From NCBI GenBank assembly GCA_015063625.1, contig SVTT01000005.1, positions 44,979 through 108,978 on the forward strand: DNA of 64,000 nucleotides, given 5' to 3'. The translations under genes and the position numbers were made by a program. Source of the stretch: Oscillospiraceae bacterium. GTDB taxonomy: Bacteria; Bacillota; Clostridia; Oscillospirales; CAG-272. The stretch's first letter is position 1, and each line of letters opens with the position of its first letter. Shown in pieces: positions 4,641 through 63,102 of the stretch. The notes beneath the pieces are model-generated. The model made no database searches and was not told the DNA's origin. It worked only from the letters and a program-made list of their open reading frames with translations.

Positions 4641-4927
4641 TCTTGCCCGGCCGAATTCGAATCGGTTCCGACTCCCCCCGGAGGGAGTTTTGGTATACCG
4701 GAGAACGGATCGATAAAGAGAATGTTGAAAGCGCGGCGAGCAGCAAAAGGGCAAAGCGATAAATTTTCAACGCACCGTGCGCTCAAAGGTCACAAAAAAT
4801 TGTTGCAAAAGGCAGGGCTTTGTGTTAAAATGAGGGTGGTCGCACAGGGCCCTGCCGATTTTGAAGGGCATACTGTCGCGGCTTCGATACGATCGAAAAC
4901 AAAATTACATATCAAAGGAGAACGATC

Positions 4928-7156: not shown

Positions 7157-7999
7157 TCAACCGATCCCGTGTGATTTGCATCGGGTGTCCCGCCACACCG
7201 ACGGCGGTATGCCGCATTGCCGCTTAAAGACCTTTGAAAAATGCTCCGAGCAACTGAAGCCGCATTGCTCGGCGATCACCCCGGTCGGCAATGACGTTTC
7301 GCAAAGCAGACGCCTGGCGGCACAAAGACGGCGCTCGGTCAGATAGTGAAAGATCGTATCCCCATAGCGCTTGCGGAAATGCTCGGTCAGCGTGACCGTG
7401 CTGCAATGGAAGTGGAGCGACAGCGAGGAAAGGCTGACACGGTGTGCAAAATTGCGGTCAAGCCATTCCTTGGTAAGTGCCGCAAGATGCTCTCCCTCCT
7501 CGGGCAGCAAAAATCGCTCGGCAATATGCGTGGCAAGCAGACCAAGCAGGCGTCGGGCGGCAAGCAGCTCGTCCTCTTCCTTACGGCAGAGTGCGCTGAC
7601 CGCCTCTCCGATCTCATCCCTGCGCTCCTCGCCGAGCAGGGAAAGGGCAGTGCGCAGGGCGGCTCCCTCATGCTCCTTGCCCTTGCGAAGCACCTGACCC
7701 GCAAAGAGATAGCCCCTGACGGTGCCCGATTCCACAATGGGGACCAGTGCCTCGGGGATGCCGAAGGGACAATCGAAATAAAGGGGCTCACGGCTTGTTT
7801 TTACGCGCTCAAAGGCAGAGAGGTCTGAGCGAAAGCAGACGGCATAGCCCTCGCCCTTACGCTGGATCGCCGTGCAGAAGGGGACGGGGGGTGCGCCGCA
7901 GTCGGCAATGCATTGCAGCTGTGTGTTGTAAAGCGAAACGCGGATGCCCGACAGTAAATAGAAATCCTTCAGCAGTCCCTTGATCAGTGTCAGCTCCAT
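7157..7999 (-). CDS. AraC-family transcriptional regulator with N-terminal PocR-like sensor domain
   Basis: ATG at 7999 (codon 21 of the track ORF) is preceded by GGAGGA. The N-terminal part, LLKDFYLLSGIRVSLYN...CPFGIPEALVPI...GYLFAGQV, is PocR-like. The C-terminal part is an AraC double HTH (...SLSSLSLHFHCSTVTLTEHFRKRYG...IAEQCGFSCSEHFSKVFKRQCGIPPSVWR). Confidence 0.8.
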   Translation of the reverse strand: MELTLIKGLLKDFYLLSGIRVSLYNTQLQCIADCGAPPVPFCTAIQRKGEGYAVCFRSDLSAFERVKTSREPLYFDCPFGIPEALVPIVESGTVRGYLFAGQVLRKGKEHEGAALRTALSLLGEERRDEIGEAVSALCRKEEDELLAARRLLGLLATHIAERFLLPEEGEHLAALTKEWLDRNFAHRVSLSSLSLHFHCSTVTLTEHFRKRYGDTIFHYLTERRLCAARRLLCETSLPTGVIAEQCGFSCSEHFSKVFKRQCGIPPSVWRDTRCKSHGIG

Positions 8000-13825: not shown

Positions 13826-14620
13826 ATGAGCTTTTTAACGGTTAAAAATATCAACAAATCCTTTGGCGATACCGTGGTGCTGCGCGGTATCGATTTCACA
13901 CTCGAGAAGGGTGAGGTCGTCAGCATCATCGGCTCCTCGGGCAGCGGAAAAACAACGCTGCTCCGTTGCCTGAACTTTCTTGAGATCGCCGATGAGGGCG
14001 AGATCACGGTGGGTGACGAGGTCATATTTAAGGCGGAAAAGGGGCTTCTTTTCAGTGATAAGGAGCTGCGCGAGAAGCGCTCCCGCTTCGGACTTGTTTT
14101 TCAGTCCTTCCACCTGTTTCCTCAGTATACGGCATTCGAAAATCTGATGCTGGCACCCACGCTGCGGCTTGACGAGCGTGCCAAAAAGGAGAAAATGCCC
14201 GTCGCAGAGAAGCGCGCCGAGCTGGATCGCATCCGCGACGAGGCGAAAAAGCTGCTTGCGCAGGTCGGACTTGCCGAGAAGGCGGATTTTTATCCTTGCC
14301 AGCTTTCGGGCGGTCAGCAGCAGCGTGTTGCCATTGCGAGAGCACTCATGCTCTCTCCCGACATCCTTTGCTTTGACGAGCCCACCTCGGCACTTGATCC
14401 TGAGCTGACGGGAGAGGTGCTGCGCGTGATCAAGTCGCTCAAGAATTCGGAGCGCACCATGATCATCGTGACGCACGAGATGGAGTTTGCCCGTAACGTT
14501 TCCGACCACGTGATCTTCATGGCGGATGGCGTCATCGAGGAGGAGGGAACCCCCGAGGAGGTCTTCGGCAATCCGAAGAGTGAGAAGACGAAGGCTTTTC
14601 TTTCCCCGAAGGACGCATGA
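13826..14620 (+). CDS. amino-acid ABC transporter ATP-binding protein
   Basis: 264 aa with Walker [10 protein letters not shown], signature [15 protein letters not shown], Walker [13 protein letters not shown] and an H-loop (VTHEM). It carries a ~20-aa charged insertion ([26 protein letters not shown]). Confidence 0.9.
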
Positions 14621-14626
14621 GTGGCT

Positions 14627-14930
14627 CGCCCAATCAGCGGCGCGATGCGGCGTTGCGCCTCGACTCGCGGTGCTCGGCGTAGGTAACTACGCCGTCGCCC
14701 CCCTCGCTCGGTGCGCCTTGCCTCGCTTGCGTCTTGAACGAGCGGGGAAGCTTGTACTTCGCCCAATCAGCGGCGCGATGCGGCGTTGCGCCTCGACTCG
14801 CGGTGCTCGGCGTAGGTAACTACGCCGTCGCCCCCTCGCTCGGTGCGCCTTGCCTCGCTTGCGTCTTGAACGAGCGGGGAAGCTTGTACTTCGCCCAATC
14901 AGCGGCGCGATGCGGCGTTGCGCCTCGACT
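14627..14930. repeat. GC-rich tandem repeat, 132-133-bp unit x ~2.3
   Basis: CGCCCAATCAGCGGCGCGATGCGGCGTTGCGCCTCGACT starts at 14627, 14760 and 14892. The copies are near-identical apart from one C-run length difference. The array begins 6 nt after the ABC ATPase stop codon. Confidence 0.9.
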
Positions 14931-23050: not shown

Positions 23051-23235
23051 GAAAGTTCTCCCGAAAAAGCTTCGTTATATCAGTTTTTGCATTAAAATCA
23101 GTCCTTGTAATAAAGAAATAAAAGTGTTATAATATATATTGGATTTTTGGATTTTCGCTGCAAACACGGCAAAAATAGTATAGACAGAACGCACGGGGCA
23201 TCATACGGTGCGCCACGGTGCGTTTTTTGGAAAGG

Positions 23236-26200
23236 ATGGCAAAAATGCGGGAAAAGGATAAGCAGCGTGCTCGCGAAAAGGAGCGCGTGACCCGCCGCGG
23301 CGTGACTGCCGTTCCCGATCGCAGAGATCGGGAGCGCGTGCGCAACGCCTCTCGGCGTATGCATGAGTTTGACGACTATATGAATGACGCCCCCGAGGAC
23401 TCCCGTCGCAAGGAGCAGGAAAGGGGAGCTCCGCGCGAGGGACATGAGCCCGAGAGAGGATCCGGAGCTGAGGAAAAACGCCCTGCGCAGGGCGAGGTGC
23501 GTCGCGCCGAGGGTCGCCGTGAGAATGCCAAAAGGGTGCTGGAGCCCACCGCTGAAAAGGCACCCGTGAGTGAGGGGAATCCCGAGCGTTTTCTGCACCA
23601 GATCGTACCTTACGTGATGTTCTGGGTGGCGCTGTTTGCCGGTGTCAGCTTTTTGCTTCGCGATATTTTCAATATGGACGGCTCGGCAGGAGCCTTCGGC
23701 ACGTGGCTTGCCAACGTGCTTTGCGGTCTGCTCGGCGTCGCGGCATATCTTTTGCCTGCCATGCTTGTGGCGCTTTCACTGAAGTGGCGTCGCTTCGTCA
23801 AGGAGGGGCAGCTGGCAAAGCGTCTGATGCTTTCGTTTGCCTTCATGCTGCTGCTCTCCTCGATCATCCACGTGTTCACCGACCCCGATAACGTGCGCAA
23901 GGTCACCGCGCTCAGTGTGCTTTATGCAGGTGGTATCGCCGGAAGCGGCGGCGGTGTGCTCGGCGGCTTTTTCGGGGAATGGATCGGCTTTTTTCTGCGC
24001 AAGATCGGCACGGGACTCCTGATGATCCCACTGCTACTGATCGTGAGCATCTATCTGGTGGGACTGACACCCGAGGAGCTCTGGCAGCGTGCCGAGAGCA
24101 AATGGAGGATCATGAAGCAGCAGCGGCGCGAGAGCCGTTTGCAAAAGGAGGAGCGTGCGAGCGTCAAGCACGCCGAAAAGGAGGAAGAGCGCGCACTGCG
24201 CGAGCAGGAAAAGGAAGAAAAGCAGGAGCGTCGGGAGCAGGAAAAGAAGGAGGGGAAGGACTCCTCCGAATGGCGTGAGCCAAGACCTCTCAAGCGCTCG
24301 GGCGGAACCATGTATCGCTTCCGCGAGGATGAGCCCGACGTGGATGCCGAGCCGCCCCGACATAAGCCGCGTGAGGACCGTGACGAGGAGGTGGAGGCGC
24401 CCGAGGAGCCCCGTGAGGAGCGTACCGAACCTCGCCGCAGAAGTAACATCGATGCCGCCTTCGGTGGCGGTGTTGAGGATTACGGCAGGGATGAGCCGAT
24501 GACCGCACCCACGGGTAGCGGCAATGAGCTATTGGATATTCCCGATGACGAGCCCGAGATCACCGAGCCGAGCGAGGGTGCGAGGGCAATTTTAGACCAG
24601 GCGGGTCAGGGAGGCAACCCGGGCGACCGCATTGAAACCATTCTCAACGATATGTTTGCTACCCCGGCACCCACACCTTCGCCGCAGACGCCCAAGGAGG
24701 ACAACGCCAATTATTACGCGCCCTTTGCGCTACCTGTCCGTCCCGAGCCAAGACGCGATAAAGGGGATGCTGCAGCAGCCTCGCGTATTGTGATCACTCC
24801 CAAGGACCGGAGCGTGGCTCCTGCGGAGCCGACGGGCGAGCGCTACGGCACTGTGCCCCCCTCGGCTGTCGATGCGCCGCGTGGAGAGGAACGGCTGGGA
24901 AGCCCCGCTTCTCAGGGCGGCACCTATCAGCCCGCGGCTCGTCCCGCACCCCGTGATGAGTATGCATACGGGGAGAGAAAAAAGCCAAACGACCCTGCGG
25001 CGTACCGCTGGGATGTTCCCGCACGCCATGATGACACACCTGCGGCAGCCGAGCCGCGCTACGGCGTGACTCCTTCCACCGAGCAACCCTACCGTACGCC
25101 TGCGGCAGCCGAGCCGCGCTACGGCAGTGCCACTCCCACTGAGCAGCCCTACCGTACGCCTGCGGCAGCCGAGCCCTGCTATGGCAGTACCACTCCCACC
25201 GAGCAACCCTACCGTACGCCTGCGGCAGCCGAGCCGCGCTATGGCAGTACCACTCCCACCGAGCAGCCCTACCGTACGCCTGCGGCAGCCGAGCCGCGCT
25301 ACGGCGTGACTCCTTCCACCGAGCAGCCCTACCGTACACCTGCGGCAGCCGAGCCCCGCTATGGCGTGACTCCTCCCGCCGCAAGACCCGACGGAGATCA
25401 CACCTTCGGCTTTGCCGAGGATCCTCTTGACGGTGTTTCGGAGGTGTCGGATGTCACTGTCACGCGCGATGCACCGCAGCAACCCTACGACGACCCCGAT
25501 GTCGATACCTTCAGCGAGTTTCTTGGTGAGCTGGAGGATGACCTTGACGGGGAGGGCAACGTTTCCGAGATCGTCACACCCACGCCTGCCGTGCGTGCGA
25601 CCTACGAGCCTGTGCCTCCCCTGTCCGCGCAGACACCCTCGCGTACCGCGACCCCCTTTGCGCCGCGCGGCGAGGAGGAAGCACCTCGCTTCGCCGCTCC
25701 CACAGAGCAGCCCCGTCGCACCCCTGCGGAGGGCACGCCCCGTTATGAGAGACCTGTCCCCGCAGAGCCTGCGCGTGCCCCTGAGGCACCCCGTTACGGC
25801 ACTGCCGTTCCCGTTCTGTCCCGTACCGAGCCCGTAGAGGATAAGCCCCCCGTGCAGCCTCCTGTGATCGAGGAATATAAGTTCCCTCCGATCACTCTGC
25901 TCAACGAGGATAAAAACGAGAAGAACCGTGATTTCTATGAGGAGATCGAGGACACCAAGGAGGTTCTCCGCAGCACGCTTGCCAGCTTTAACATTCACAT
26001 TCAGGATGAGGTGGCATGCTCGCACGGACCTTCGATCACGCGCTATGAGCTTCGCCCCGTCGCGGGAACCAGCGTGCGCTCGGTAACCAACCGTATCGAC
26101 GATATCTCGCTGAATCTGGCAGCGTCGGTGCGTATCGAGGCGCCCATTCCGGGCAAGCCCGCGATCGGCATCGAGGTACCCAACAAGGTGCGGGAAACCG

Positions 26201-27396
26201 TTTATATGCGCACCATGCTGGAGTCCGAGACCTTCAAGCGATCAACCAAGCCCTTTGAGGTGCCTCTCGGTCTTGATGTCGGCGGCGGGGTACGCCTTTG
26301 CGACATCACCGCCATGCCCCACCTGCTGGTAGCGGGTACGACCGGCTCGGGTAAATCGGTTTGTATCAATTCGATCCTGGTCAGCCTGCTGTACAAGACC
26401 TCGCCCGAGGATCTGCGGCTGATCCTGATCGACCCGAAGCAGATCGAATTTGCGCCCTACGAGCATATTCCGCATCTGTATATGCCCATCGTCACCGATA
26501 TGCAGCGTGCCGCAGGCGCACTTGCCTGTGCGGTGCAGGAGATGGAGCGTCGCTTCTCGCTCATTAAGGATGTGGGTGTACGCGACATCAAGGCGTATAA
26601 CGAGGCGGTGAAGAATGACCCTGACCGTGAGCACCTGCCCCGCATCATCATCGTGATCGACGAGTTTGCCGATCTCAAGATGAGCTGCACCAATAACGAT
26701 CCCGAAAACTTTACCTGTCGTATCGCCCAGAAGGCACGTGCCGCAGGCATCCATCTGATCATCGGTACGCAGCGCCCCTCGGTGGACGTCATTACGGGTA
26801 AGCTGAAGACCAATATCGCATCCCGTATCGCGTTTATGGTCAAGCAGCAGGTCGATTCCCGTACCATTCTGGACGTCAACGGTGCAGAGTCGCTGACGGG
26901 TAAGGGTGATATGCTGTATATGCCTGCCAATTCGCAGGATAAGCAGCCCTGCCGCATTCAGGGCGCCTTCGTTTCGGACGGGGAGCTTGAGCGCGTGGTA
27001 TCCTACGTGCGCGACCATAATCCGCCCGTGCAGTATAACCGCGAGTTCATGAACCAGATCGAGATCGAGATGGCAAAGGCGGCAAATACGGGTCGTAAGA
27101 ACGGTGAGGACATTGAGGAGGAGGATGCCGATGGCAGCGAGGATCCGAAGTTCCTTGAGGCTGTCGAGCTGGCGGTCGAAACGCAGAAGATCGCGACCTC
27201 GCTTCTTCAGCGTCGCCTTGGTGTAGGCTACGGACGTGCCGCTAAGATCATTGACCGTATGGAGGATCTCGGGCTGGTCAGTGCCCCCGACGGCAATAAG
27301 GCGCGTAAGGTGCTTCCCGCCGCGCAAGGATATCTCAATCATATGGCGGCAGAGGGGGATGAGGGTGACGTCGACGATTTCGGCGATTATACCTGA
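23236..27396 (+). CDS. ftsK: DNA translocase FtsK/SpoIIIE with a very long low-complexity linker
   Basis: The N-terminus is charged, followed by 4 TM helices and a ~650-aa P/E/A/R-rich linker. The motor has Walker A GTTGSGKSV and Walker B IIIVIDEFADL, and the gamma wHTH is LLQRRLGVGYGRAAKIIDRMEDLG. The start is uncertain between ATG 23218, 23236 and 23245. Confidence 0.9.
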   Translation: MAKMREKDKQRAREKERVTRRGVTAVPDRRDRERVRNASRRMHEFDDYMNDAPEDSRRKEQERGAPREGHEPERGSGAEEKRPAQGEVRRAEGRRENAKRVLEPTAEKAPVSEGNPERFLHQIVPYVMFWVALFAGVSFLLRDIFNMDGSAGAFGTWLANVLCGLLGVAAYLLPAMLVALSLKWRRFVKEGQLAKRLMLSFAFMLLLSSIIHVFTDPDNVRKVTALSVLYAGGIAGSGGGVLGGFFGEWIGFFLRKIGTGLLMIPLLLIVSIYLVGLTPEELWQRAESKWRIMKQQRRESRLQKEERASVKHAEKEEERALREQEKEEKQERREQEKKEGKDSSEWREPRPLKRSGGTMYRFREDEPDVDAEPPRHKPREDRDEEVEAPEEPREERTEPRRRSNIDAAFGGGVEDYGRDEPMTAPTGSGNELLDIPDDEPEITEPSEGARAILDQAGQGGNPGDRIETILNDMFATPAPTPSPQTPKEDNANYYAPFALPVRPEPRRDKGDAAAASRIVITPKDRSVAPAEPTGERYGTVPPSAVDAPRGEERLGSPASQGGTYQPAARPAPRDEYAYGERKKPNDPAAYRWDVPARHDDTPAAAEPRYGVTPSTEQPYRTPAAAEPRYGSATPTEQPYRTPAAAEPCYGSTTPTEQPYRTPAAAEPRYGSTTPTEQPYRTPAAAEPRYGVTPSTEQPYRTPAAAEPRYGVTPPAARPDGDHTFGFAEDPLDGVSEVSDVTVTRDAPQQPYDDPDVDTFSEFLGELEDDLDGEGNVSEIVTPTPAVRATYEPVPPLSAQTPSRTATPFAPRGEEEAPRFAAPTEQPRRTPAEGTPRYERPVPAEPARAPEAPRYGTAVPVLSRTEPVEDKPPVQPPVIEEYKFPPITLLNEDKNEKNRDFYEEIEDTKEVLRSTLASFNIHIQDEVACSHGPSITRYELRPVAGTSVRSVTNRIDDISLNLAASVRIEAPIPGKPAIGIEVPNKVRETVYMRTMLESETFKRSTKPFEVPLGLDVGGGVRLCDITAMPHLLVAGTTGSGKSVCINSILVSLLYKTSPEDLRLILIDPKQIEFAPYEHIPHLYMPIVTDMQRAAGALACAVQEMERRFSLIKDVGVRDIKAYNEAVKNDPDREHLPRIIIVIDEFADLKMSCTNNDPENFTCRIAQKARAAGIHLIIGTQRPSVDVITGKLKTNIASRIAFMVKQQVDSRTILDVNGAESLTGKGDMLYMPANSQDKQPCRIQGAFVSDGELERVVSYVRDHNPPVQYNREFMNQIEIEMAKAANTGRKNGEDIEEEDADGSEDPKFLEAVELAVETQKIATSLLQRRLGVGYGRAAKIIDRMEDLGLVSAPDGNKARKVLPAAQGYLNHMAAEGDEGDVDDFGDYT
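25036..25380 (+). repeat. in-frame 60-bp tandem repeat (x ~5.7) inside ftsK
   Basis: The unit is ACNCCTGCGGCAGCCGAGCCNNGCTAYGGC...GAGCARCCCTACCGT, encoding TPAAAEPRYG(V/S)(T/A)(P/T)(S/P)TEQPYR. Copies start at 25036, 25096, 25156, 25216, 25276 and 25336. Confidence 0.9.
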
Positions 27397-27416
27397 CCTC
27401 AGAAGCCGTTTGAAAG

Positions 27417-27817
27417 AAAAAAGCACTTGTGGCATAGCGTGATGTCCTTAACGGACAAATCACGCTAACTAAGTTTGCCCTTGCGGGCAAGTGAAGTTTA
27501 CTTCGTAAGTGAAGTTATCCTGCGGATAGTGAAGTTTTGCCTTCGGCAAAGTGGGCAAACTTAACTTCACTGCGAGCTTTGGTGAGCAACTTCACTGTGT
27601 ATCACACAACTTCACTTTTGCGGCAGCAAAAACTTCACTGACAGAAAAAGAGCAAACATACAAGATTTTTGTCTTGCGTGTTTGCTCTTTCTGTTTGTGA
27701 TATGGGTTTGGGCTTAGCCCATAGAGTATTTGACTAGTCAAATGCGATGCTCGCACTTAGCGGTATTTTTCAATTTCTCCGCTAAGGACATCGCCCAATA
27801 GCCGCAAGTGCTTTTTT
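27417..27817. repeat. ~39-bp imperfect inverted repeat (split terminator stem) bracketing a ~325-bp hairpin-rich segment
   Basis: The left arm is AAAAAAGCACTTGTGGCATAGCGTGATGTCCTTAACGG (27417-27454). The right arm is CCGCTAAGGACATCGCCCAATAGCCGCAAGTGCTTTTTT (27779-27817). The outer 17 bp differ at one base and match the stem of the intact terminator at 4435-4466. Confidence 0.7.
27437..27694 (+). repeat. zipper element, copy A (word GTGAAGTT / AACTTCAC)
   Basis: GTGAAGTT occurs at 27491, 27509 and 27529. AACTTCAC occurs at 27563, 27588, 27608 and 27631. Every spacer is self-complementary. The central hairpin is TTTGCC-TTCG-GGCAAA. Capping hairpins lie at 27437-27465 and 27641-27694. Confidence 0.75.
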
Positions 27818-32663: not shown

Positions 32664-32955
32664 TTGGGCGACCTACGGTAAAGCAGGTCGCCCAACTAAG
32701 TTTGCCCATTCGGGCAAGTGAAGTTTACTGCGTAAGTGAAGTTATCCTGCGGATAGTGAAGTTTTGCCTTCGGCAAAGTGGGCAAACTTAACTTCACTTG
32801 TGCGAAGCACAAACATCACTGCAAAGCAACTTCACTTTCACGTTAGTGAAAACTTCACCTATTACCTCCCGAAAAACGCAAATGTAACACACCATACTTG
32901 CAGAGCAAGAAGTGTGAAAAGGAGTACAGGCAAAATGCCCGTACTCCTTTTTGTT
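32664..32955 (+). repeat. zipper element, copy B
   Basis: GTGAAGTT occurs at 32718, 32736 and 32756. AACTTCAC occurs at 32790, 32828 and 32851, and AACATCAC at 32812. The left ~100 nt are almost identical to copy A. The capping hairpins are TTGGGCGACCT..AGGTCGCCCAA (32664-32695) and AAAAGGAGTAC..GTACTCCTTTT (32917-32951). Confidence 0.75.
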
Positions 32956-36756: not shown

Positions 36757-39700
36757 GTGTTGAGGCACTGCGCCTTGACGGGGAATACCGTCAGCTCTGC
36801 GCGGATGCGTGCGCCGCGCTCGGCACGCGATCCTTGCCCTTTGCCGTCTGCGGCCTTTGCGACGGCGCCGCCGATGCCATGCTGGCGGCGCTCCTCGAGG
36901 ATACGGCAGGAGCGCGTCGCTCTGCGGCGCTGCTGCTCTTGCCCGAGGAGAAGGAATGCGTGCGGTTGCAGAAATATCTGACCGCATGTGGGCTGCGTGC
37001 CGCCTTTTTCACGGCACGTGACCTGACCTTTTACAATATTACGGCTTCGCATGAGTACGAATATGAGCGCCTTGGCGTGCTTTGGGGACTTATGGGAGGC
37101 GATTTTGACGTGGTGCTGACCACGCCCGATGCAGCGCTTGGCTTTACGGTGTCAAGAGAACGGCTGAAGAAGGCGACACTGACGGTGGACACCGCATCAA
37201 GACTGGAGCCTGCCGAGCTTTCTTCGGCGCTTGTTGCCGCAGGCTACGTCCGTGTCGATCTTGTGGAGGGTGCGGGGCAGTTTGCCCTGCGCGGCGGCAT
37301 CATCGACGTCTTTCCTCCCAATCTGCGCGCTCTGACGACGGATGGGCAGCTGATCACGGCTCCCGCGCCCCTGCGTATTGAGCTTTTCGGGGACGAGGTG
37401 GACCGTATGGGGCTCTTTGACGTGGAGAACCAGCGACTTCATACGGGCGTGGTAAGCTGTGAGCTGCCCCCTGCCCGTGAGGTGCTGATCGACGCCGAGG
37501 TGCGCGAGGCTTTGAAGCGTGCGGTGCGCGAGCAGCTTTCGAGATGCCAAAGCAGGGAAGCGAGTGAGGAGCTCCAAAAGGAGCTTGCCGAGCTTGATGT
37601 GGGCATCGATGTGCGCTTTGCCGATAAATATCTTTCGCTGATCGACCCCGCACGAGAGTGCCTGCTTTCCTATTTTACCCCCAAAACGGTGGCGATTTTG
37701 CGCGGAACCAACGCCATTCGCGACCGCCTGAAGGCAGCGATCTGGCACCGTGACGAGAGCGTGAAGGAGCTGGTTGAGGGGGGGACGGTGCACCCTCGCT
37801 ATGCAGAGTACGGACATCCCGCGTCGGTGCTTGAGAGCTTCCTTGACGGGGCGCTGACGCTTCACGTCGATTCGATCGCCGAGGGGCTTTCGGGAAAGCG
37901 CCTCGGTGGGCTTTACAGCTTTCGCAGCAAGCATACGGTGGCATACGGGGATCAGCTTTCGCTCCTGGAGGAGGATCTGCAAAGCTACGTTGCCACGGGA
38001 AGGCGCATCGTCATTGCCGCTGAGAGCGAGGTGTCTGCCAGGGGTATCCTTTCCTATCTCGGGGATCGGGGCTATCTCGTGACCCCTGCCGAGAGTGGCT
38101 CGGATCTCCCACAAGAGGGAGAGATCGCAGTGGTGGCGAAGGAGCCAACCCTCGGCTTTGAGCTTGCGGGTGCGGGGATCGTGGTGCTCTCGCTTGCCGA
38201 GGAGGGGCGTGTCGGCGGTCTTTCGATGACGGGGCGCGTGCGTACCGCGAAAAAGAAAAAGGATGCGCGACGTGCCGTGCTTTCCTATGCCGATCTGCAG
38301 GTTGGCGATCTCGTGGTACACGAATCCCACGGCATCGGCAGATATATGGGACTTGAAACACTGACCATCGACGGAGTGACCCGTGATTACGTCAGCATTC
38401 AGTATGCGGGCTCGGATAAACTCTTTTTGCCCTGCGACCGTCTTGACGCCGTGTCGAAATATATCGGTGCACACGCCGACGACGGCATGGTCAAGCTCTC
38501 GCGCTTTGGGGGCGGAGAATGGAAAAAGGCGAAGGCTCGCGCCAAGGCGGCGGTCAAGGATATGGCAAAGGATCTCATACGCCTGTATGCCGAGCGCGAG
38601 CGCCGACCGGGCTTTGCCTTTCCGCCCGACGATGCCGATCAGCAGGATTTTGAGGCGGCATTTGATTATACCGAAACCGAGGGGCAGATCGCGGCGGCGG
38701 ATGAGATCAAGGAGGATATGATGCGTGCCGCCCCCATGGATCGCTTGCTTTGCGGTGATGTAGGCTTCGGAAAGACCGAGGTGGCACTGCGCGCCGCTTA
38801 TAAGGCGGTGCTCGCGGGCAAGCAGGTCGCGATCCTTGTGCCCACCACCATTCTGGCATTGCAGCATTTTCAGACCATCCAGTCCCGTATGCGCGCCTTT
38901 GCGGTCAGCGTGGATATGCTCTCGCGCTTCCGTACAGCAAAGCAGCAGCAGGAAACGCTGCGCCGCCTGGCACGGGGCGATATTGATATCATCGTGGGCA
39001 CGCACCGCCTTGTTTCCAAGGACGTGAGGTTCCGCGATCTTGGGTTGCTCATTGTGGACGAGGAGCAGCGCTTCGGCGTGGCGCAAAAGGAAAAGCTCAA
39101 AAGCCTTGCGGGCAACGTCGACGTGCTGACCCTGACGGCAACGCCCATTCCGCGCACACTCAATATGGCAATGAGTGGCATCCGAGACATTTCGGTTCTG
39201 GACGAGGCGCCGGGTGACCGCCTGCCCGTGCAGACCTACGTGCTGGAGGATGATCCCCTCATCATCCATGAGGCGATCCGCAGAGAGCTGCGGCGGGGCG
39301 GTCAGGTCTTTTATCTGCACAACGCGGTCGAGGATATCCACGCCACAGCGGCAAGGCTGTCGGCGGCGATCCCCGAGGCGTCGATCACCGTGGCACACGG
39401 ACAGATGGATAAGGATGCACTGGAGCGCATCTGGCGTGATATGATCGAGGGTAAGATCGACATCCTGGTCAGCACCACCATCATCGAAACCGGCATCGAC
39501 GTGCCCAACGCCAATACGCTCATTGTGGATCACGCACACCGTCTGGGGCTTTCCCAGCTGCATCAGATCCGCGGCAGGGTGGGACGCTCTCCCCGCCGCG
39601 CCTATGCCTACTTCACCTATCCCGCGGGGCGGGCGCTCGGTGACGTCCAGCGCAAGCGCCTTGAGGCGATCCGTGAGTTTGCGGAGTTCGGTGCGGGCTT

Positions 39701-41699: not shown

Positions 41700-41810
41700 A
41701 ACCGCATAGAAATCGGGGGTGCTGCCAAACAGGGCGGCTGAGATGGGCAATGCCCAAACCCTTAAACCTGATACGGATAATGCCGGCGTAGGGAAGAGAT
41801 CGAGTATTCT
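41700..41810 (+). ncRNA. TPP (THI-box) riboswitch aptamer
   Basis: CGGGGGTGCTGCC...GGCGGCTGAGA...AACCCTTAAACCTGATACGGATAATGCCGGCGTAGGGAAG matches the THI element consensus (GGGGTGC / CTGAGA / ACCCTTTGAACCTGATCTGGATAATGCCAGCGTAGGGAA). Confidence 0.9.
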
Positions 41811-41846
41811 GTTACCGCACGGAGATTTTCGTGCGGTAATTTTATA
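41811..41846 (+). terminator. riboswitch expression-platform terminator
   Basis: TTACCGCACG-GAGATTTT-CGTGCGGTAA followed by TTTTAT, 18 nt before the thiT RBS. Confidence 0.7.
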
Positions 41847-41863: not shown

Positions 41864-42691
41864 ATGCAACATTCAACAAAGACCAAGGCACTGGTGGAGA
41901 GTGCACTGCTCGTCGCCTTTGCCACCGTTCTCTCGGTCCTGCCCGTGGCACAGCTGCCCTACGGTGGCTCGATCACGGTGGCATCCATGCTTCCCATTGT
42001 GATCATCTCTTACCGTAACGGTGTTGGAATGGGACTGGGTGCGGGGCTTGTATTCGGTGTGATCCAGCAGCTGCTGGGTCTGAACAATCTTACCTATTTT
42101 ACCACGTGGCAGTCGATCGTCGCCATCATTTTGCTGGATTATCTGGTGGCGTTTGCCGTCACAGGGCTTGGCGGTATCTTCCGCAGGGGGTTGAAGAGCC
42201 AGCCGCTTGCGCTTTGCGCGGGTGCCCTTCTTGTGTCGGTGCTGCGCTATGCCTGCCACGTGATCTCGGGTGCCACCGTCTGGGCGGGGCTTTCGATCCC
42301 CACCACTGCGGCACTCGCCTATTCCTTGATCTACAACGCCACGTATATGGTGCCGGAAGCAGTCGTTCTGCTGCTGGCGGCGGGCTATCTCGGCTCGGTG
42401 CTTGACTTTCGGGGGGAGCAGCTCGGGCGTATGGTGCGCTCGGAGAAGAAGACGCTCCGTCCTGCGCATATCGGGGGCAGTCTTGCGGGACTGCTTGCCG
42501 TCGGTGCGGTGGCGTTTGACACCGTGATGATCTTTTCGCACATGCAGGATCCCGAAAGCGGAGAATTCGCCGTGGCAGGGCTGCTTGCTGAGCCCTTTGC
42601 CGAAAGCTTCTGGCTGCCCGTCGTCATCGCTACCGCCGCGGCGGCGGTGCTGGCAGCGATCTCGGTGCTGCTGCTTCGTCCGCGCCGGTGA
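41864..42691 (+). CDS. thiT: ECF-type thiamine transporter S component ThiT with a C-terminal ~90-aa two-helix extension
   Basis: It lies downstream of the TPP riboswitch. The N-terminal ~185 aa have the six-helix ThiT pattern (LVESALLVAFATVLS...GGSITVASMLPIVIISYRNG...YACHVISGATVWA...YSLIYNATYMVPE). The total of 275 aa is longer than typical ThiT. Confidence 0.75.
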   Translation: MQHSTKTKALVESALLVAFATVLSVLPVAQLPYGGSITVASMLPIVIISYRNGVGMGLGAGLVFGVIQQLLGLNNLTYFTTWQSIVAIILLDYLVAFAVTGLGGIFRRGLKSQPLALCAGALLVSVLRYACHVISGATVWAGLSIPTTAALAYSLIYNATYMVPEAVVLLLAAGYLGSVLDFRGEQLGRMVRSEKKTLRPAHIGGSLAGLLAVGAVAFDTVMIFSHMQDPESGEFAVAGLLAEPFAESFWLPVVIATAAAAVLAAISVLLLRPRR

Positions 42692-42764
42692 TTCTTTCAT
42701 CGTCCTCTCTTGTCCCTGGCAAAGTGCAAGCATCGCATTTGACCCAACAAATGCAAATGGGCTA

Positions 42765-43217
42765 GGCAAGAGGGAGTGATCTGAACCCGCCCAAAAGCCC
42801 TGATTCCGATAGGGGGCGGCGCCTTCGACGACCCGTTTTTCGGCACCCTCGCGGCACGTTCGGATACGATCAAACCGGTAGGGGTCGGCGCCTTCGACGA
42901 CCCGTCTTTCGGCGCCCTCGGCGACTCATTCTTGGTTGCCGTTCGTTTGTAACGGGCTGCCGTGGGCGTTAGCCCCTACCATGTATGATATCACCCGAGC
43001 TTCGAGGGAACAGATTTTTGCGGCAGCATGGGCGGACATCTGCCACCAAAATCATCTTAAAATCAAGGCTTTGAGGGTCATCCGAGTTTTGAGAGAGCAA
43101 ATGTTTGCAGACGCAAGGGAAATTCTTGCAGTCATATGCGGATATGACAAGGGAATTCCCCGATGCGGATGCGGATATCTGCCTCTCAAAACCGAGTTCA
43201 GATCACTCCCTCTTGCC
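42765..43217. mobile_element. MITE copy 1 (453 bp) with 17-bp terminal inverted repeats, flanked by TA
   Basis: The TIRs are GGCAAGAGGGAGTGATC (42765-42781) and GATCACTCCCTCTTGCC (43201-43217), a perfect pair. TA lies at 42763-42764 and 43218-43219. There is no ORF of its own. Confidence 0.7.
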
Positions 43218-43219
43218 TA

Positions 43220-43493
43220 GGCAAGAGGGAGTGATCCAAACCCGCCCAAAAGCCCTGATTTTCAGCGCTTTCGGCGGCAAGTGCGCTTGTAAAGTCCGCA
43301 CTTGACTTCGCGCCCTTGCCACCAAAATCATCTTAAAATCAAGGCTTTGAGGGTCATTCGAGTTTTGAGAGAGCAAATATTTGCAGACGCAAGGGAAATT
43401 CTTGCAGTCATATACGGATATGACAAGGGAATTCCCCGATGCGGATGCGGATATCTGCCTCTCAAAACCGAGTTCAGATCGCTCCCTCTTGTC
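43220..43493. mobile_element. MITE copy 2 (274 bp), same family, abutting copy 1
   Basis: The TIRs are GGCAAGAGGGAGTGATC (43220-43236) and GATCGCTCCCTCTTGTC (43477-43493). TA flanks lie at 43218-43219 and 43494-43495. The 176-bp core 43318-43493 matches 43042-43217 with 5 substitutions. Confidence 0.7.
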
Positions 43494-43539
43494 TAAATTC
43501 CCTAAAGCTCTGCTTCACTTCGGGGATCCCTACGCAAGC

Positions 43540-43796
43540 ACAGAGAGCAGACACGCAAGACGCTTCGTCTTGCGTGTCTGCTCTTCTGTTAGTGATGTTT
43601 TTGCTATCGCAAAAGTGATGTTATTCGCTTCGCTCATCATGATGTTGCTCGCCAAGGCTCGCAGTGATGTGATGTTTGCCCACTGTGCCGAAGGCACAAC
43701 ATCATTCACGCAGTGAACATCACAAGGCGAAGCCGACATCACTTGCCCATAAGGGCAAACATCGTTTCGCGTGATACTCCGTTAAGAGTATCACGC
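43540..43796 (-). repeat. zipper element, copy D (word GTGATGTT / AACATCAC)
   Basis: Hairpin B is ACAGAGAGCAGACACGCAAGAC-GCTT-CGTCTTGCGTGTCTGCTCTTCTGT (43540-43589). GTGATGTT-type words lie at 43592, 43615, 43639 and 43664. AACATCA(C/T) lies at 43698, 43716 and 43735. Hairpin A is GCGTGATACTC..GAGTATCACGC (43769-43796). Confidence 0.75.
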
Positions 43797-43895
43797 TGTG
43801 CCGTCGGGTCTTTTTATGCTTTTCCCGATCGCTTTTTCTTGACAGAGCGCACAATTTGTGATATCATAATATGAGTTATAAGAAAGGCTGATGCT

Positions 43896-45242
43896 ATGAA
43901 GATCGGATTTGTTTCCCTCGGCTGTCCCAAAAACCAGCTGGATACCGAGGTCATGCTGCACGAGCTGGTCAGTGCGGGCTATGAGATCACGCCCGACGAA
44001 ACCGAGGCGGACGTGGTGGTCATCAACACCTGTGCCTTCATCGAAAGCGCAAAAAAAGAGGCGATCGACAATATTCTGGACGTTGCCTGGCTCAAAAAGC
44101 ACCGTTCGCTGAAGGGGATCGTGGTCACGGGCTGCCTTGCCGAGCGATACCGCGAGGAGATCCTTGCGGAGCTGCCCGAGGTGGATGCACTGCTCGGTGT
44201 GGGCAGCATCCATCATATCGTGGAGGCGGTGGAGAGCATTGCCGCACGCAAAAAGAACAAAAAAACACCCAAGTATACCTCCTTTGAGGATAAAAATACG
44301 GTGGCACTCGGCGGTGACCGCGTGCTGACCACCCCCGAGTATTACTCTTACTTAAAGATCGCCGAGGGCTGTGACAACCGCTGTACCTACTGTGCGATCC
44401 CCTCGATCAGAGGCAGATTTCGCTCCCGTCCGATGGATGAGCTGGTCGAGGAGGCAAAGCAGCTTGAGGCGCTTGGCGTGAAGGAGCTGAACATCGTGGC
44501 GCAGGATACCACGCGCTACGGCAAGGACCTTTACGGGGAATACAAGCTTCATGAGCTCTTGCATCGCATCACCGAGGCAACCTCGATTCCCTGGATCCGT
44601 CTGCTTTATTGCTATCCCGATAAGATCACCGACGAGCTGATCGCCGAGATCAGGGATAACGACCGCATCGTCAAATATATCGATCTGCCCCTTCAGCACA
44701 TCAGTGACCGCATGCTGAAGGCAATGAACCGCCACGGCGATGGCGCCATGATCCGAGGGGTCATCGAAAAGCTGCGCCGCGAGGTCAAGGATATTACCAT
44801 CCGTACCACCTTCATCGTGGGCTTCCCCGGCGAGAGCGAGGCTGATTTTGAGGAGCTTTGCACCTTTGTTGACAGCGCGCGCTTTGAGCATATGGGCGTC
44901 TTTACCTACTCGCCCGAGGAGGGAACGCCTGCCGCAGAGATGACGGATCAGATCGACGAGCAGGTCAAGCAGGATCGCATGGACATCCTCATGAAGCAGC
45001 AAATGGCACTGAACGCTACCGAAAACGGGAAAAAGGTGGGCAGCACGGTGCGTGTGCTGGTCGAGGACTTTGACCCCGTCAGCGAGGCGCATTTCGGCAG
45101 ATCGGCTGCCGATGCCCCCGATATTGACGGCAAGGTATATTTCAAGGCAGCCCGTCGCATTGCCCCGGGCAGTATGATCGATGTTAAAATCAGAGAAGTG
45201 GTGGATTACGATCTTTACGGTCGCGCCATTCTCTCCAAGTGA
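43896..45242 (+). CDS. rimO: ribosomal protein S12 methylthiotransferase RimO
   Basis: 448 aa. It has the MTTase N-domain (MKIGFVSLGCPKNQLDTE...VVINTCAFI), a radical-SAM CDNRCTYCAIP motif and a C-terminal TRAM domain. Confidence 0.9.
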   Translation: MKIGFVSLGCPKNQLDTEVMLHELVSAGYEITPDETEADVVVINTCAFIESAKKEAIDNILDVAWLKKHRSLKGIVVTGCLAERYREEILAELPEVDALLGVGSIHHIVEAVESIAARKKNKKTPKYTSFEDKNTVALGGDRVLTTPEYYSYLKIAEGCDNRCTYCAIPSIRGRFRSRPMDELVEEAKQLEALGVKELNIVAQDTTRYGKDLYGEYKLHELLHRITEATSIPWIRLLYCYPDKITDELIAEIRDNDRIVKYIDLPLQHISDRMLKAMNRHGDGAMIRGVIEKLRREVKDITIRTTFIVGFPGESEADFEELCTFVDSARFEHMGVFTYSPEEGTPAAEMTDQIDEQVKQDRMDILMKQQMALNATENGKKVGSTVRVLVEDFDPVSEAHFGRSAADAPDIDGKVYFKAARRIAPGSMIDVKIREVVDYDLYGRAILSK

Positions 45243-61501: not shown

Positions 61502-61794
61502 AAAAGGAGTACGAACATTTGTTTGTACTCTTTTTCACACGCCTTGCCTGCAAGGTATAGTGTGTTACATTATACTTTTGTTTTTTGGGTGGTAAAAGGT
61601 GAAGTTTTCGCTATCGCGAAAGTGAAGTTGCTATGCAGTGAAGTTTGTGCTGCGCACAAGTGAAGTTAAGTTTGCCCACTTTGCCGAAGGCAAAACTTCA
61701 CTATCCGCAGGATAACTTCACTTACGCAGTAAACTTCACTTGCCCCTTGGGGCAAACTTAGTTGGGGCACCTGCAATATCGCAGGTGTCCCAAC
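61502..61794 (-). repeat. zipper element, copy C (inverted orientation)
   Basis: On the plus strand, GTGAAGTT occurs at 61599, 61622, 61638 and 61660, and AACTTCAC at 61694, 61714 and 61732. Its reverse complement aligns with copy B at roughly 85-90% by eye. The capping hairpins lie at 61502-61535 and 61761-61794. Confidence 0.75.
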
Positions 61795-62570: not shown

Positions 62571-62655
62571 GCGAGAGTGGCGGAACTGGCAGACGCGCAC
62601 GTTTGAGGGGCGTGTGATTTCCATCGTACGGGTTCAAGTCCCGTCTCTCGCACCA
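62571..62655 (+). tRNA. tRNA-Leu (anticodon GAG), class II with long variable arm, CCA encoded
   Basis: Acceptor GCGAGAG pairs with CTCTCGC. The anticodon stem is CACGT/GCGTG with loop TT-GAG-GG. The variable arm is TGATTTCCATCGTAC and the T-arm is ACGGG-TTCAAGT-CCCGT. Length 85 nt. Confidence 0.92.
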
Positions 62656-63102
62656 ACAAAGAAAAGGGCACCCAATTGGGTGTCCTTTTCTTTGTTGGTA
62701 CAAGGGCTCGCGGATGCGAGCCCTTGCCGCCTTCGCTTGCCTTCCTTCTTATACCGTACGAAACGGCGGCAGAGAAGAACGCCGATTATTGCAGGGCAAA
62801 ATGGCGGCGTTACCGCCAAGGCGTTCTTCAGACGTGCAGGGCAAAGCCCTGCTAAGTGGTTCAACGTCCCGTCTCTCGCACCAACAAAGAAAAGGGCACC
62901 CGATCGGGTGCCCTTTTCTTTGTTGGTACAAGGGCTCGCGGATGCGAGCCCTTGCCGCCTTCGCTTGCCTTCCTTCTTATACCGTACGAAACGGCGGCAG
63001 AGAAGAACGCCGTTTTTTGCTTGCAAAATGATAGCGTTCAGCCGTCAAGGCGTTCTTCAGACGTGCAGGGCAAAGCCCTGCTAAGTGGTTCAACGTCCCG
63101 TC
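62631..63102 (+). repeat. tandem duplication (227-229-bp unit x 2 plus 16 nt) that begins inside the tRNA-Leu T-arm
   Basis: GGTTCAA(C)GTCCCGTC occurs at 62631, 62858 and 63087. The following TCTCTCGCACCAACAAAGAAAAGGGCACCC... is repeated at 62646 and 62874. The two units are near-identical except for one internal ~35-nt segment. Confidence 0.9.

What the first reader, a model, noticed from the sequence alone, without database searches (positions are those of the whole stretch)
42763..43495. Two abutting MITEs sharing a TA: IS630/Tc1-mariner-style footprints without a transposase
The layout is TA [GGCAAGAGGGAGTGATC ... GATCACTCCCTCTTGCC] TA [GGCAAGAGGGAGTGATC ... GATCGCTCCCTCTTGTC] TA. The 17-bp terminal inverted repeats are perfect in copy 1 and have 2 mismatches in copy 2. 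Each element is flanked by TA, the target duplication typical of IS630/Tc1-mariner elements. The junction forms a 36-bp perfect palindrome (43201-43236). Copy 1 (453 bp) equals copy 2 (274 bp) plus an internal ~180-bp GC-rich segment. That segment itself contains a ~50-bp direct repeat, GG(C/T)GGCGCCTTCGACGACCCGT(T/C)TTTCGGC(A/G)CCCTCG, at about 42824 and 42883. A TIR-like half-site (TCCTCTCTTGTCC) also occurs at ~42705, just after the thiT stop codon.
Basis: partly seen in the sequence, partly recalled or inferred. Interest (0 to 1): 0.6.

Follow-up and report, generated by a model that had tools for sequence, protein, structure and literature searches.

The report
Two abutting TA-flanked MITEs, structured
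Two small non-coding "jumping DNA" elements (MITEs) sit head-to-tail between thiT and rimO in an uncultured gut Ruminococcaceae genome; they belong to a previously undescribed, unusually well-folded repeat family, which is a fairly ordinary kind of thing.

Summary
Two elements lie at 42765-43217 (453 bp) and 43220-43493 (274 bp). Each has the TIR GGCAAGAGGGAGTGATC, extending to about 27 nt, and TA on each side. One TA is shared, giving a perfect 36-bp palindrome.

They are members of a real dispersed repeat family:
- At least 10 related copies with unrelated flanks occur in another Eubacteriales MAG and in related metagenome contigs.
- About 27 of 29 termini are TA-flanked.
- A paralogous uninterrupted site exists in the same window (27715-27716). 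Removing both elements and leaving one TA restores colinearity with a second copy of a Gut-1-RNA-type repeat.

No coding capacity was found in the elements. No transposase domain was found in 40 ORFs tested across the window. The autonomous parent was not found, so the IS630/Tc1-mariner assignment rests only on TA specificity.

- Copy 1 is not copy 2 plus an insert. A 235-nt segment replaces a 56-nt one.
- The half-site at about 42705 is weak (13/17).

New finding: the family has a conserved three-way fold (TIR stem plus two long hairpins) with many compensatory changes.

Verdict: a new member of a known kind; modest interest.

The parts
42763..42764 (.). Left TA (target duplication)
   Evidence: It corresponds to the single TA of the paralogous uninterrupted site.
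42765..43217 (+). MITE copy 1 (453 bp, long variant). The 17-nt TIR cores at 42765-42781 and 43201-43217 are perfect; the repeat extends to about 25 nt inside the element, to 42789 and from 43193 (repeat finder arms 42762-42789 / 43193-43220, 28 nt including the TA and one flanking base, one mismatch).
   Evidence: It folds as a TIR stem plus an expanded hairpin A (42789-43078) plus hairpin B (43083-43194), z = -11.
42806..43040 (+). 235-nt alternative distal part of hairpin A in copy 1 (62% GC). It replaces the canonical 56 nt and contains the 46-nt direct repeats at 42806-42851 and 42875-42920.
   Evidence: A 34-nt related fragment occurs in the copy at L126.
43218..43219 (.). TA shared by the two copies; centre of the perfect 36-bp palindrome 43201-43236
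   Evidence: (I3).
43220..43493 (+). MITE copy 2 (274 bp, canonical form); its right TIR has 2 mismatches
   Evidence: It aligns over its full length with MAG copies at 73-75%. It adopts the three-way fold with z = -12 on either strand.
43244..43354 (+). Hairpin A of copy 2 (approximate coordinates); conserved apex CTTGyAAAGTCCrCACTT
43358..43474 (+). Hairpin B of copy 2 (approximate coordinates); conserved apex ATAT-rCGG-ATAT
43494..43495 (.). Right TA
42718..42764 (+). Left piece of the host repeat unit (Gut-1-type element 'X1') that the MITE pair interrupts
   Evidence: It matches 27761-27714 (92% over 25 nt, E = 2e-5; 79% over 48 nt) and is colinear with the right piece.
43496..43830 (+). 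Right piece of host repeat X1. It contains a perfect 19-bp hairpin at 43544-43584, an array of small hairpins spaced by GTGATGTT / AACATCAC, and a sub-threshold Gut-1 (RF01706) match at 43694-43767 on the minus strand.
   Evidence: (I5).
27715..27716 (-). Paralogous uninterrupted ('empty') TA site in repeat X2 (27380-27761, minus strand): ATGGGC-TA-AGCCC

Best explanation
These are two non-autonomous DNA transposons (MITEs) of one family. They are inserted at the same TA dinucleotide inside a Gut-1-type non-coding repeat that lies between thiT and rimO.

Each element consists of ~27-bp terminal inverted repeats enclosing two long imperfect palindromes. It encodes nothing.

The inferred mechanism is cut-and-paste. 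A transposase supplied in trans recognises the TIRs, excises the element and inserts it at TA, duplicating the TA. This is the behaviour of IS630/Tc1-mariner enzymes. The second insertion went into the TA flanking the first, which gives TA-copy1-TA-copy2-TA and the 36-bp palindrome.

Shown here: family membership, dispersal, TA flanks, lack of coding capacity, the uninterrupted paralogous site, and the conserved fold.

Inferred: the identity of the transposase, the order of the two insertions, and why the internal hairpins are conserved. Possible reasons are a requirement for mobilisation, or for tolerance or use by the host as an RNA or DNA structure.
For: - The TIRs, TA flanks and palindrome are as described.
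- MAG JAZSGQ01 has 8 exact TIR matches on 6 contigs. Its copies are 91-97% identical to each other, 73-75% identical to copy 2, bounded exactly by the TIRs, and have unrelated flanks.
- A sister subfamily is homologous over its full length but has co-varying TIRs (GCCGAAGAGAGCCGAAC, GCCGCACGGGAGTCGAAC, GCCGTAAGAGAGTCGAAC).
- More copies were recovered through spurious ORFs in the protein database: L126 and L127-L136, one from the window's own sample.
- About 27 of 29 termini read are TA-flanked.
- Abutting elements always share a single TA, as expected if the TA is target rather than element (window; L126, L034, L010, L026).
- Excising both copies in silico and leaving one TA restores colinearity with paralog X2 at 27380-27761.
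- No reading frame is conserved.
- No Rfam family matches.
- No transposase domain was found in 40 window ORFs.
- TA-specific insertion with TA duplication is established for IS630-family ISY100 (PMC2170065). RUP/IS630-Spn1 is the precedent for a bacterial MITE of this type (PMC2229807).
Against: - No autonomous element with these TIRs was found in the genome, metagenome or viral contig scans, or in the plasmid and phage collections.
- No presence/absence polymorphism was seen. Contigs of the same species from 5 samples carry the same structure or break inside it.
- Relatives with 85%-identical RimO give no orthologous empty site.
- Alignment with the paralog just right of the junction is gappy (39 nt against 16 nt).
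- Only one locus in the 64-kb window carries the family.
- TA duplication is not unique to IS630. From memory, some IS5-family elements also duplicate TA.
Confidence: 0.85

Rival explanations
1. The elements are MITEs, but they are mobilised by a transposase outside the IS630/Tc1-mariner family. Candidates are an IS5-family IS427/IS1301-type enzyme (TA duplication, GG-type ends) or an IS30-type enzyme (2-bp duplications, IR-IR junctions with a 2-bp spacer).
For: - The TIRs start with GG/GC, as in many IS5-family ends (from memory).
- The abutted IR-TA-IR junction resembles the 2-bp-spaced IR-IR junction of (IS30)2 (from memory).
- No IS630 parent was found.
Against: - The flank is TA at about 27 of 29 termini, whereas IS30 duplications are not sequence-fixed.
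- The base after the right TA is a/c/c rather than the G expected from an AYTAG (IS1301-type) target.
Confidence: 0.25
2. The pair arose by tandem duplication or unequal recombination of a single insertion, not by two insertions.
For: The two copies lie head-to-tail, and their shared parts are 95-97% identical.
Against: - The internal segments are unrelated (235 nt against 56 nt).
- Exactly one TA lies between the copies, as TA-targeted insertion predicts.
- Heterologous pairs (family 1 next to family 2) share a TA in the same way at four other loci, and duplication cannot make those.
Confidence: 0.1
3. The element is primarily a structured non-coding RNA gene or cis-regulatory RNA module that happens to be mobile. 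On this view the conserved three-way fold and loop motifs reflect an RNA function.
For: - The fold has z of about -12.
- 94.8% of cells are paired, and 47 of 94 pairs show compensatory change, against 7-10 in slid controls.
- This rises to 56 of 101 pairs when the divergent L128 copy is added.
- The apical motifs are conserved.
- Copies sit next to gene starts and next to a 6S RNA gene.
Against: - The pairs are almost all Watson-Crick, with no consistent G-U against A-C strand bias, and both strands fold equally well. The signal is equally that of DNA palindromes.
- There is no Rfam match.
- Only about 5 independent lineages were sampled.
- No expression data are available.
Confidence: 0.12
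4. The sequence is not mobile. It would be a conserved regulatory palindrome or terminator structure belonging to the thiT-rimO region.
For: The junction palindrome scores as a terminator-like site on the minus strand.
Against: - The same element occurs at many unrelated loci in other genomes.
- It is absent from the thiT-rimO interval of relatives.
- It is absent from the paralogous repeat X2.
Confidence: 0.02

Closest known systems
RUP (repeat unit of pneumococcus), mobilised by IS630-Spn1
   Same: It is a non-coding bacterial MITE with TIRs that inserts at TA. It tends to insert next to or into other repeats and IS elements. Its transposase is supplied in trans (PMC2229807).
   Different: RUP is 107 bp, A+T-rich and forms a single stem-loop, and its TIRs match a known IS. 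This family is ~275-285 bp (453 bp in the long variant), about 50% GC, forms a three-way fold, and has no known parent.
Correia / NEMIS elements of Neisseria
   Same: They have ~25-bp TIRs and a TA duplication. They have long and short variants that differ by an internal segment. No proven autonomous parent is known. They form strong hairpins in transcripts (PMC2229807).
   Different: They are 107-155 bp and form a single hairpin. Their sequence is unrelated and they occur in a different phylum. Here the variants differ by replacement of a segment rather than by simple presence or absence.
ISY100 / IS630 family (bacterial Tc1-mariner)
   Same: Insertion is almost exclusively at TA, with TA duplication. 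The ~24-bp TIRs are the only cis requirement (PMC2170065).
   Different: Those are autonomous, ~1 kb elements with a DDE transposase gene. No such gene or matching TIR was found here.
CIR repeats of Caulobacter/Brucella
   Same: The 5' and 3' halves each fold independently into a long stem-loop (PMC2229807, Table 1 footnote).
   Different: CIR lacks TIRs and has no demonstrated target duplication.

Membership tests
Bacterial MITE (non-autonomous TIR transposon) | Terminal inverted repeats | tested here: met
   The 17-nt core is perfect and extends to 27-28 nt at 96%. TIRs are present in all full copies elsewhere.
Bacterial MITE (non-autonomous TIR transposon) | Small size with no coding capacity | tested here: met
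   The elements are 274 and 453 bp. No reading frame is conserved among copies. A protein search with the longest ORF returned only two spurious-ORF clusters.
Bacterial MITE (non-autonomous TIR transposon) | Several dispersed copies with unrelated flanks | tested here: met
   MAG JAZSGQ01 has 6 contigs whose flanks do not align. Further copies are at L126 and L127-L136. Within the 64-kb window only this one locus carries the family.
Bacterial MITE (non-autonomous TIR transposon) | Target-site duplication, shown by filled and empty sites | tested here: met
   About 27 of 29 termini are TA-flanked. A paralogous uninterrupted site ATGGGC-TA-AGCCC lies at 27715-16. No orthologous empty site was obtainable.
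IS630/Tc1-mariner-derived MITE | TA target with a 2-bp TA duplication | tested here: met
   As in the row above. Abutting elements share a single TA.
IS630/Tc1-mariner-derived MITE | TIRs match those of an autonomous IS630-family element | tested here: inconclusive
   All true family hits to the exact 17-mer TIR were MITE-sized. The metagenome, viral, plasmid and phage collections gave nothing. ISfinder was not available.
IS630/Tc1-mariner-derived MITE | A DDE (DD34-35E) transposase present in the same genome | not testable with these tools
   No transposase Pfam domain was found in 40 window ORFs. The rest of the genome could not be scanned.
IS5 family, IS1301/IS427-type | Insertion in AYTAG with TA duplication, so that the right flank reads TAG (from memory) | tested here: not met
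   Right flanks read TAa (window), TAc (L010 mini-element) and TAc (L128).
IS200/IS605 PATE or REPIN | No TIRs and no duplication; subterminal hairpins; insertion 3' of a fixed tetra- or pentanucleotide on one side | tested here: not met
   The elements have 27-bp TIRs and TA on both sides.
Any Rfam RNA family (for the MITE itself) | A covariance-model match | tested here: not met
   Only miRNA-model noise with E of 0.07 or higher appeared over 42763-43495.
Gut-1 RNA (RF01706), for the host repeat right of copy 2 | Score at or above the gathering threshold of 50 bits | tested here: not met
   The score at 43694-43767 (minus strand) is 34.8 bits. The region is nevertheless 74% identical over 274 nt to a paralog that passes the threshold (55.7 bits).

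The most novel reading that the evidence does not exclude
The internal two-hairpin core is the functional unit, and the TIRs are only its vehicle. On this reading the ~280-nt three-way junction, with conserved apical motifs and extensive compensatory change across subfamilies whose TIRs have diverged, would be one of two things. It could be a mobile structured RNA. Alternatively it could be a DNA-hairpin structure required by an undescribed TA-specific mobilisation mechanism in uncultured Oscillospirales.
Probability: 0.12. Interest if true: 0.6.

Novelty: new member of a known kind. Interest (0 to 1): 0.38.

Why it matters
Few MITE families appear to be described from uncultured gut and rumen Clostridia. 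A literature search for this one, by TIR sequence and by MITE plus Ruminococcaceae, found nothing. This family breaks short-read assemblies: contigs from four samples end inside it. It also generates spurious ORF calls, namely P0121, P0122 and the 55-aa genes called on L113 and L115.

The family inserts next to gene starts and non-coding RNA genes, so it is a practical annotation issue and a possible modifier of expression. Its conserved fold makes it a good case for asking whether MITE secondary structure is selected for mobilisation or for host use.

The host repeat also places the orphan Gut-1 RNA motif in a Ruminococcaceae MAG (RimO is so named by NCBI). It shows that Gut-1 is a multi-copy element there.

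Tried and rejected
- Metagenome scan with the 17-mer TIR: the 65 hits were all chance or unrelated, many of them an RBS-like GGGAGTGATCtATG context.
- Viral contig scans with the TIR and with the two conserved apex motifs found nothing.
- Plasmid and phage BLAST found nothing.
- Three Oscillospiraceae genome hits to the TIR turned out to lie upstream of what looks like an rplU (L21) gene. They have no TA and no partner, so they are chance.
- A tRNA-like reading of the TIR (the GGTTCGA-like motif) was rejected. ARAGORN found nothing, and the putative T-stem does not pair (inspection).
- A kissing-loop interaction between the hairpin A loop (CCGC) and the hairpin B loop (GCGG) was considered and rejected, because the loops do not co-vary in copies with CCAC or GCTC.
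- The idea that the right half is a remnant of a transposase 3' end was rejected. The frame is not conserved, and the protein search found no transposase.
- Orientation of copies relative to neighbouring genes could not be tested, because my crude ORF caller was unreliable.
- Orthologous empty site: same-species contigs are invariant. Relatives carry a different gene in the interval.

Full report
**Observation**

Reading 42500-43800, together with the repeat finder and a mismatch-tolerant search, confirms the layout. It reads TA(42763-64)-[42765-43217]-TA(43218-19)-[43220-43493]-TA(43494-95).

The 17-mer GGCAAGAGGGAGTGATC is perfect at three termini and has two mismatches at the fourth. With up to 3 mismatches there are five matches in the window against 0.22 expected; 0 of 100 shuffles reached that number. 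The fifth match (38110-38126, 3 mismatches) is an unrelated chance-level site. The inverted repeats run to 27-28 nt. The junction is a perfect 36-bp palindrome at 43201-43236.

One statement is wrong. The copies share the left 44 nt (95%) and the right 179 nt (97%). Between these, copy 1 has 235 nt (42806-43040) and copy 2 an unrelated 56 nt (43261-43316). Local alignment of the two middles does not exceed shuffles. The direct repeat inside copy 1 is 46 nt, at 42806 and 42875, 91% identical. The 'half-site' at 42698-42714 matches at only 13/17.

**Setting**

- Upstream lie a TPP riboswitch (41705-41812) and a YuaJ/ThiT-family gene (41864-42691).
- Downstream lies rimO (43896-45242) with its own strong promoter-like site, TTGACA-17-TATCAT, at 43839-43867.
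- The window is part of JGI metagenome contig Ga0224413_10002603. NCBI names the identical RimO as from a 'MAG: Ruminococcaceae bacterium'.

**Is it a repeat family?**

An exact scan of one genome per species with the TIR gave 44 stretches. Most are singletons in unrelated taxa. Seven stretches on six contigs of one Eubacteriales MAG (JAZSGQ01) are real.

Those copies are ~276 bp and bounded exactly by the TIRs. They are 91-97% identical to each other and 73-75% identical to window copy 2 over its full length. Their flanks are unrelated.

The same loci hold a sister subfamily. It is homologous end to end but has different, mutually matching TIRs. They also hold TIR-only mini-elements:
- a 42-bp element at L010 3016-3057;
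- a 38-bp element in L034;
- 8-10-bp TA-flanked remnants abutting full copies.

Gene callers put spurious ORFs on such repeats. I therefore searched the protein database with the 64-aa ORF of copy 2 and recovered two clusters. Their contigs carry further copies:
- L126 has a family-1 copy abutting a family-2 copy through one TA.
- L128 has a complete TA-flanked family-2 element.
- L127, from the window's own sample, has a hybrid right end.

By my reading of these sequences, about 27 of 29 termini are flanked by TA. Wherever two elements abut, they share a single TA.

**Empty site**

Contigs of the same species from five samples are identical in this region or break inside the repeat. Relatives with 85%-identical RimO have a 291-295-aa membrane-protein gene on the opposite strand between thiT and rimO. 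That gene is absent from the window, and homology resumes only at about 43857. No orthologous empty site is therefore available.

However, the sequence to the right of copy 2 (43496 to about 43830) is itself a repeat. It is 74% identical over 274 nt to 27431-27697 on the other strand, with shorter matches at 32694-32798 and 61659-61763. These paralogs are Gut-1 RNA (RF01706) hits above the gathering score. The copy next to the MITEs scores only 34.8 bits.

The 47 nt to the left of copy 1 (42718-42764) match the same paralog at 27761-27714. Deleting both MITEs and leaving one TA makes the two flanks colinear with the paralog. The paralog reads ATGGGC-TA-AGCCC at 27715-16. This is a paralogous uninterrupted site with TA exactly at the insertion point. 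The alignment is gappy for about 20 nt to the right of it.

**Coding capacity and transposase**

No frame is conserved among copies. Forty ORFs across the window show no transposase domain. Scans of the metagenome, viral, plasmid and phage collections found no larger element with these ends. The parent therefore remains unknown. A literature search for the TIR sequence, and for MITEs in Ruminococcaceae, found nothing relevant.

**Structure**

Copy 2 folds into the TIR stem plus two long hairpins, with z of about -12 on either strand. Copy 1 keeps the base of hairpin A and all of hairpin B, but has an expanded distal hairpin A.

On an alignment of nine copies from both subfamilies, RNAalifold predicts the same three-way fold. 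94.8% of cells are paired. 47 of 94 pairs carry compensatory changes, against 7-10 when partners are slid by 1-3 columns and 22 ± 3 in shuffles. Adding the divergent L128 copy gives 56 of 101 pairs. The apices CTTGyAAAGTCCrCACTT and ATATrCGGATAT are conserved.

The pairs are almost all Watson-Crick, with no consistent strand bias. The data therefore do not say whether the selected form is RNA, single-stranded DNA or a cruciform. Only about five independent lineages were sampled.

**Mechanism**

The best reading is cut-and-paste mobilisation in trans by a TA-specific DDE transposase. This is established for IS630-family ISY100, which inserts almost exclusively at TA and needs only its ~24-bp TIRs (PMC2170065). 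It has also been proposed for RUP/IS630-Spn1 (PMC2229807).

One element inserted at a TA in the Gut-1-type repeat. The other then inserted into one of the duplicated TAs. Repeated heterologous pairs that share a TA at other loci argue that the TA beside an existing end is a favoured target. They also argue against simple tandem duplication.

The family assignment of the transposase is an inference. IS5-family (IS1301-type) and IS30-type enzymes were considered and fit less well.

**Comparison and verdict**

These are MITEs in the sense of Correia, RUP and ERIC. They differ in being larger and not A+T-rich, and in having a conserved three-way fold rather than a single stem-loop. Most bacterial MITEs are under 200 bp and A+T-rich (PMC2229807).

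This is a new member of a known kind. Interest is modest. It is raised slightly by the covariation signal and by the nesting in multi-copy Gut-1 elements.

Noticed in passing
window 27466-27540 (+), 32693-32767 (+), 61690-61764 (-); diverged copy 43694-43767 (-): There are three Gut-1 RNA (RF01706) matches above the gathering score, plus one diverged copy, within 64 kb. Gut-1 was described only from human-gut metagenomes, with no host or function (PMC2864571). Here it is a multi-copy element in a genome whose RimO NCBI attributes to a Ruminococcaceae MAG.
   Followed up: partly
window 43590-43770 compared with 27440-27650: The Gut-1-type repeat units consist of two oppositely oriented arrays of small hairpins spaced by GTGAAGTT / AACTTCAC. 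The copy next to the MITEs uses GTGATGTT / AACATCAC throughout both halves. This concerted change suggests either that the two halves pair with each other or that a binding specificity has switched.
   Followed up: partly
window 42718-42764 + 43496-43501: If the MITEs are removed, the sequence reads TTGACC-18 nt-TAAATT. The insertion may therefore split a promoter-like site of the Gut-1-type unit. The paralog has TTGACT-19 nt-TAAGCC. The direction of transcription of these units is unresolved.
   Followed up: no
window 42692-43857 compared with L117 3039-3914 and L123 2726-3613: Relatives with 85%-identical RimO carry a 291-295-aa predicted membrane protein (no Pfam match) on the minus strand between thiT and rimO. 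This gene is entirely absent from the window, where repeats fill the interval.
   Followed up: partly
L010 3016-3057; L034 ~7353-7395; L010 6534-6547; L021 ~2365-2378; L009 ~4735-4746: There are TIR-only mini-elements (42 and 38 bp) and 8-10-bp TA-flanked remnants such as TA-GCCGCACGGC-TA, always abutting a full copy. They could be internal-deletion products or excision and repair footprints.
   Followed up: no
L017 5240-5515 and 5523-5738: In MAG JAZSGQ01, a family-1 MITE ends 7 nt before a 6S RNA gene (RF00013, 54.7 bits).
   Followed up: no
window 14626-14930: There are 2.3 tandem copies of a 132-nt G+C-rich unit, 99% identical, just downstream of an ABC-transporter ATPase gene (13826-14620).
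   Followed up: no
window 62638-63102: Direct repeats of 155 nt and 61 nt lie about 228 nt apart, 97-98% identical, overlapping short ORFs near a Peptidase_M50 gene.
   Followed up: no
window 25039-25381: There are 5.7 copies of a 60-nt (20-codon) tandem repeat inside the 1392-aa FtsK/SpoIIIE gene (23218-27396), upstream of its FtsK_alpha, FtsK_SpoIIIE and FtsK_gamma domains (residues 889-1366).
   Followed up: no
window 43544-43584: A perfect 19-bp hairpin with a 3-nt loop is homologous to a hairpin in paralog X2 that is flanked by A-rich and T-rich runs. It is a possible bidirectional terminator between thiT and the Gut-1-type array.
   Followed up: no
L113, L115 (end at window 43145), L116 (ends at 43195), L002 (starts at 43686): Short-read contigs of the same species from other samples end inside the MITE core or at the centre of the Gut-1-type inverted array. 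These repeats therefore fragment assemblies.
   Followed up: partly
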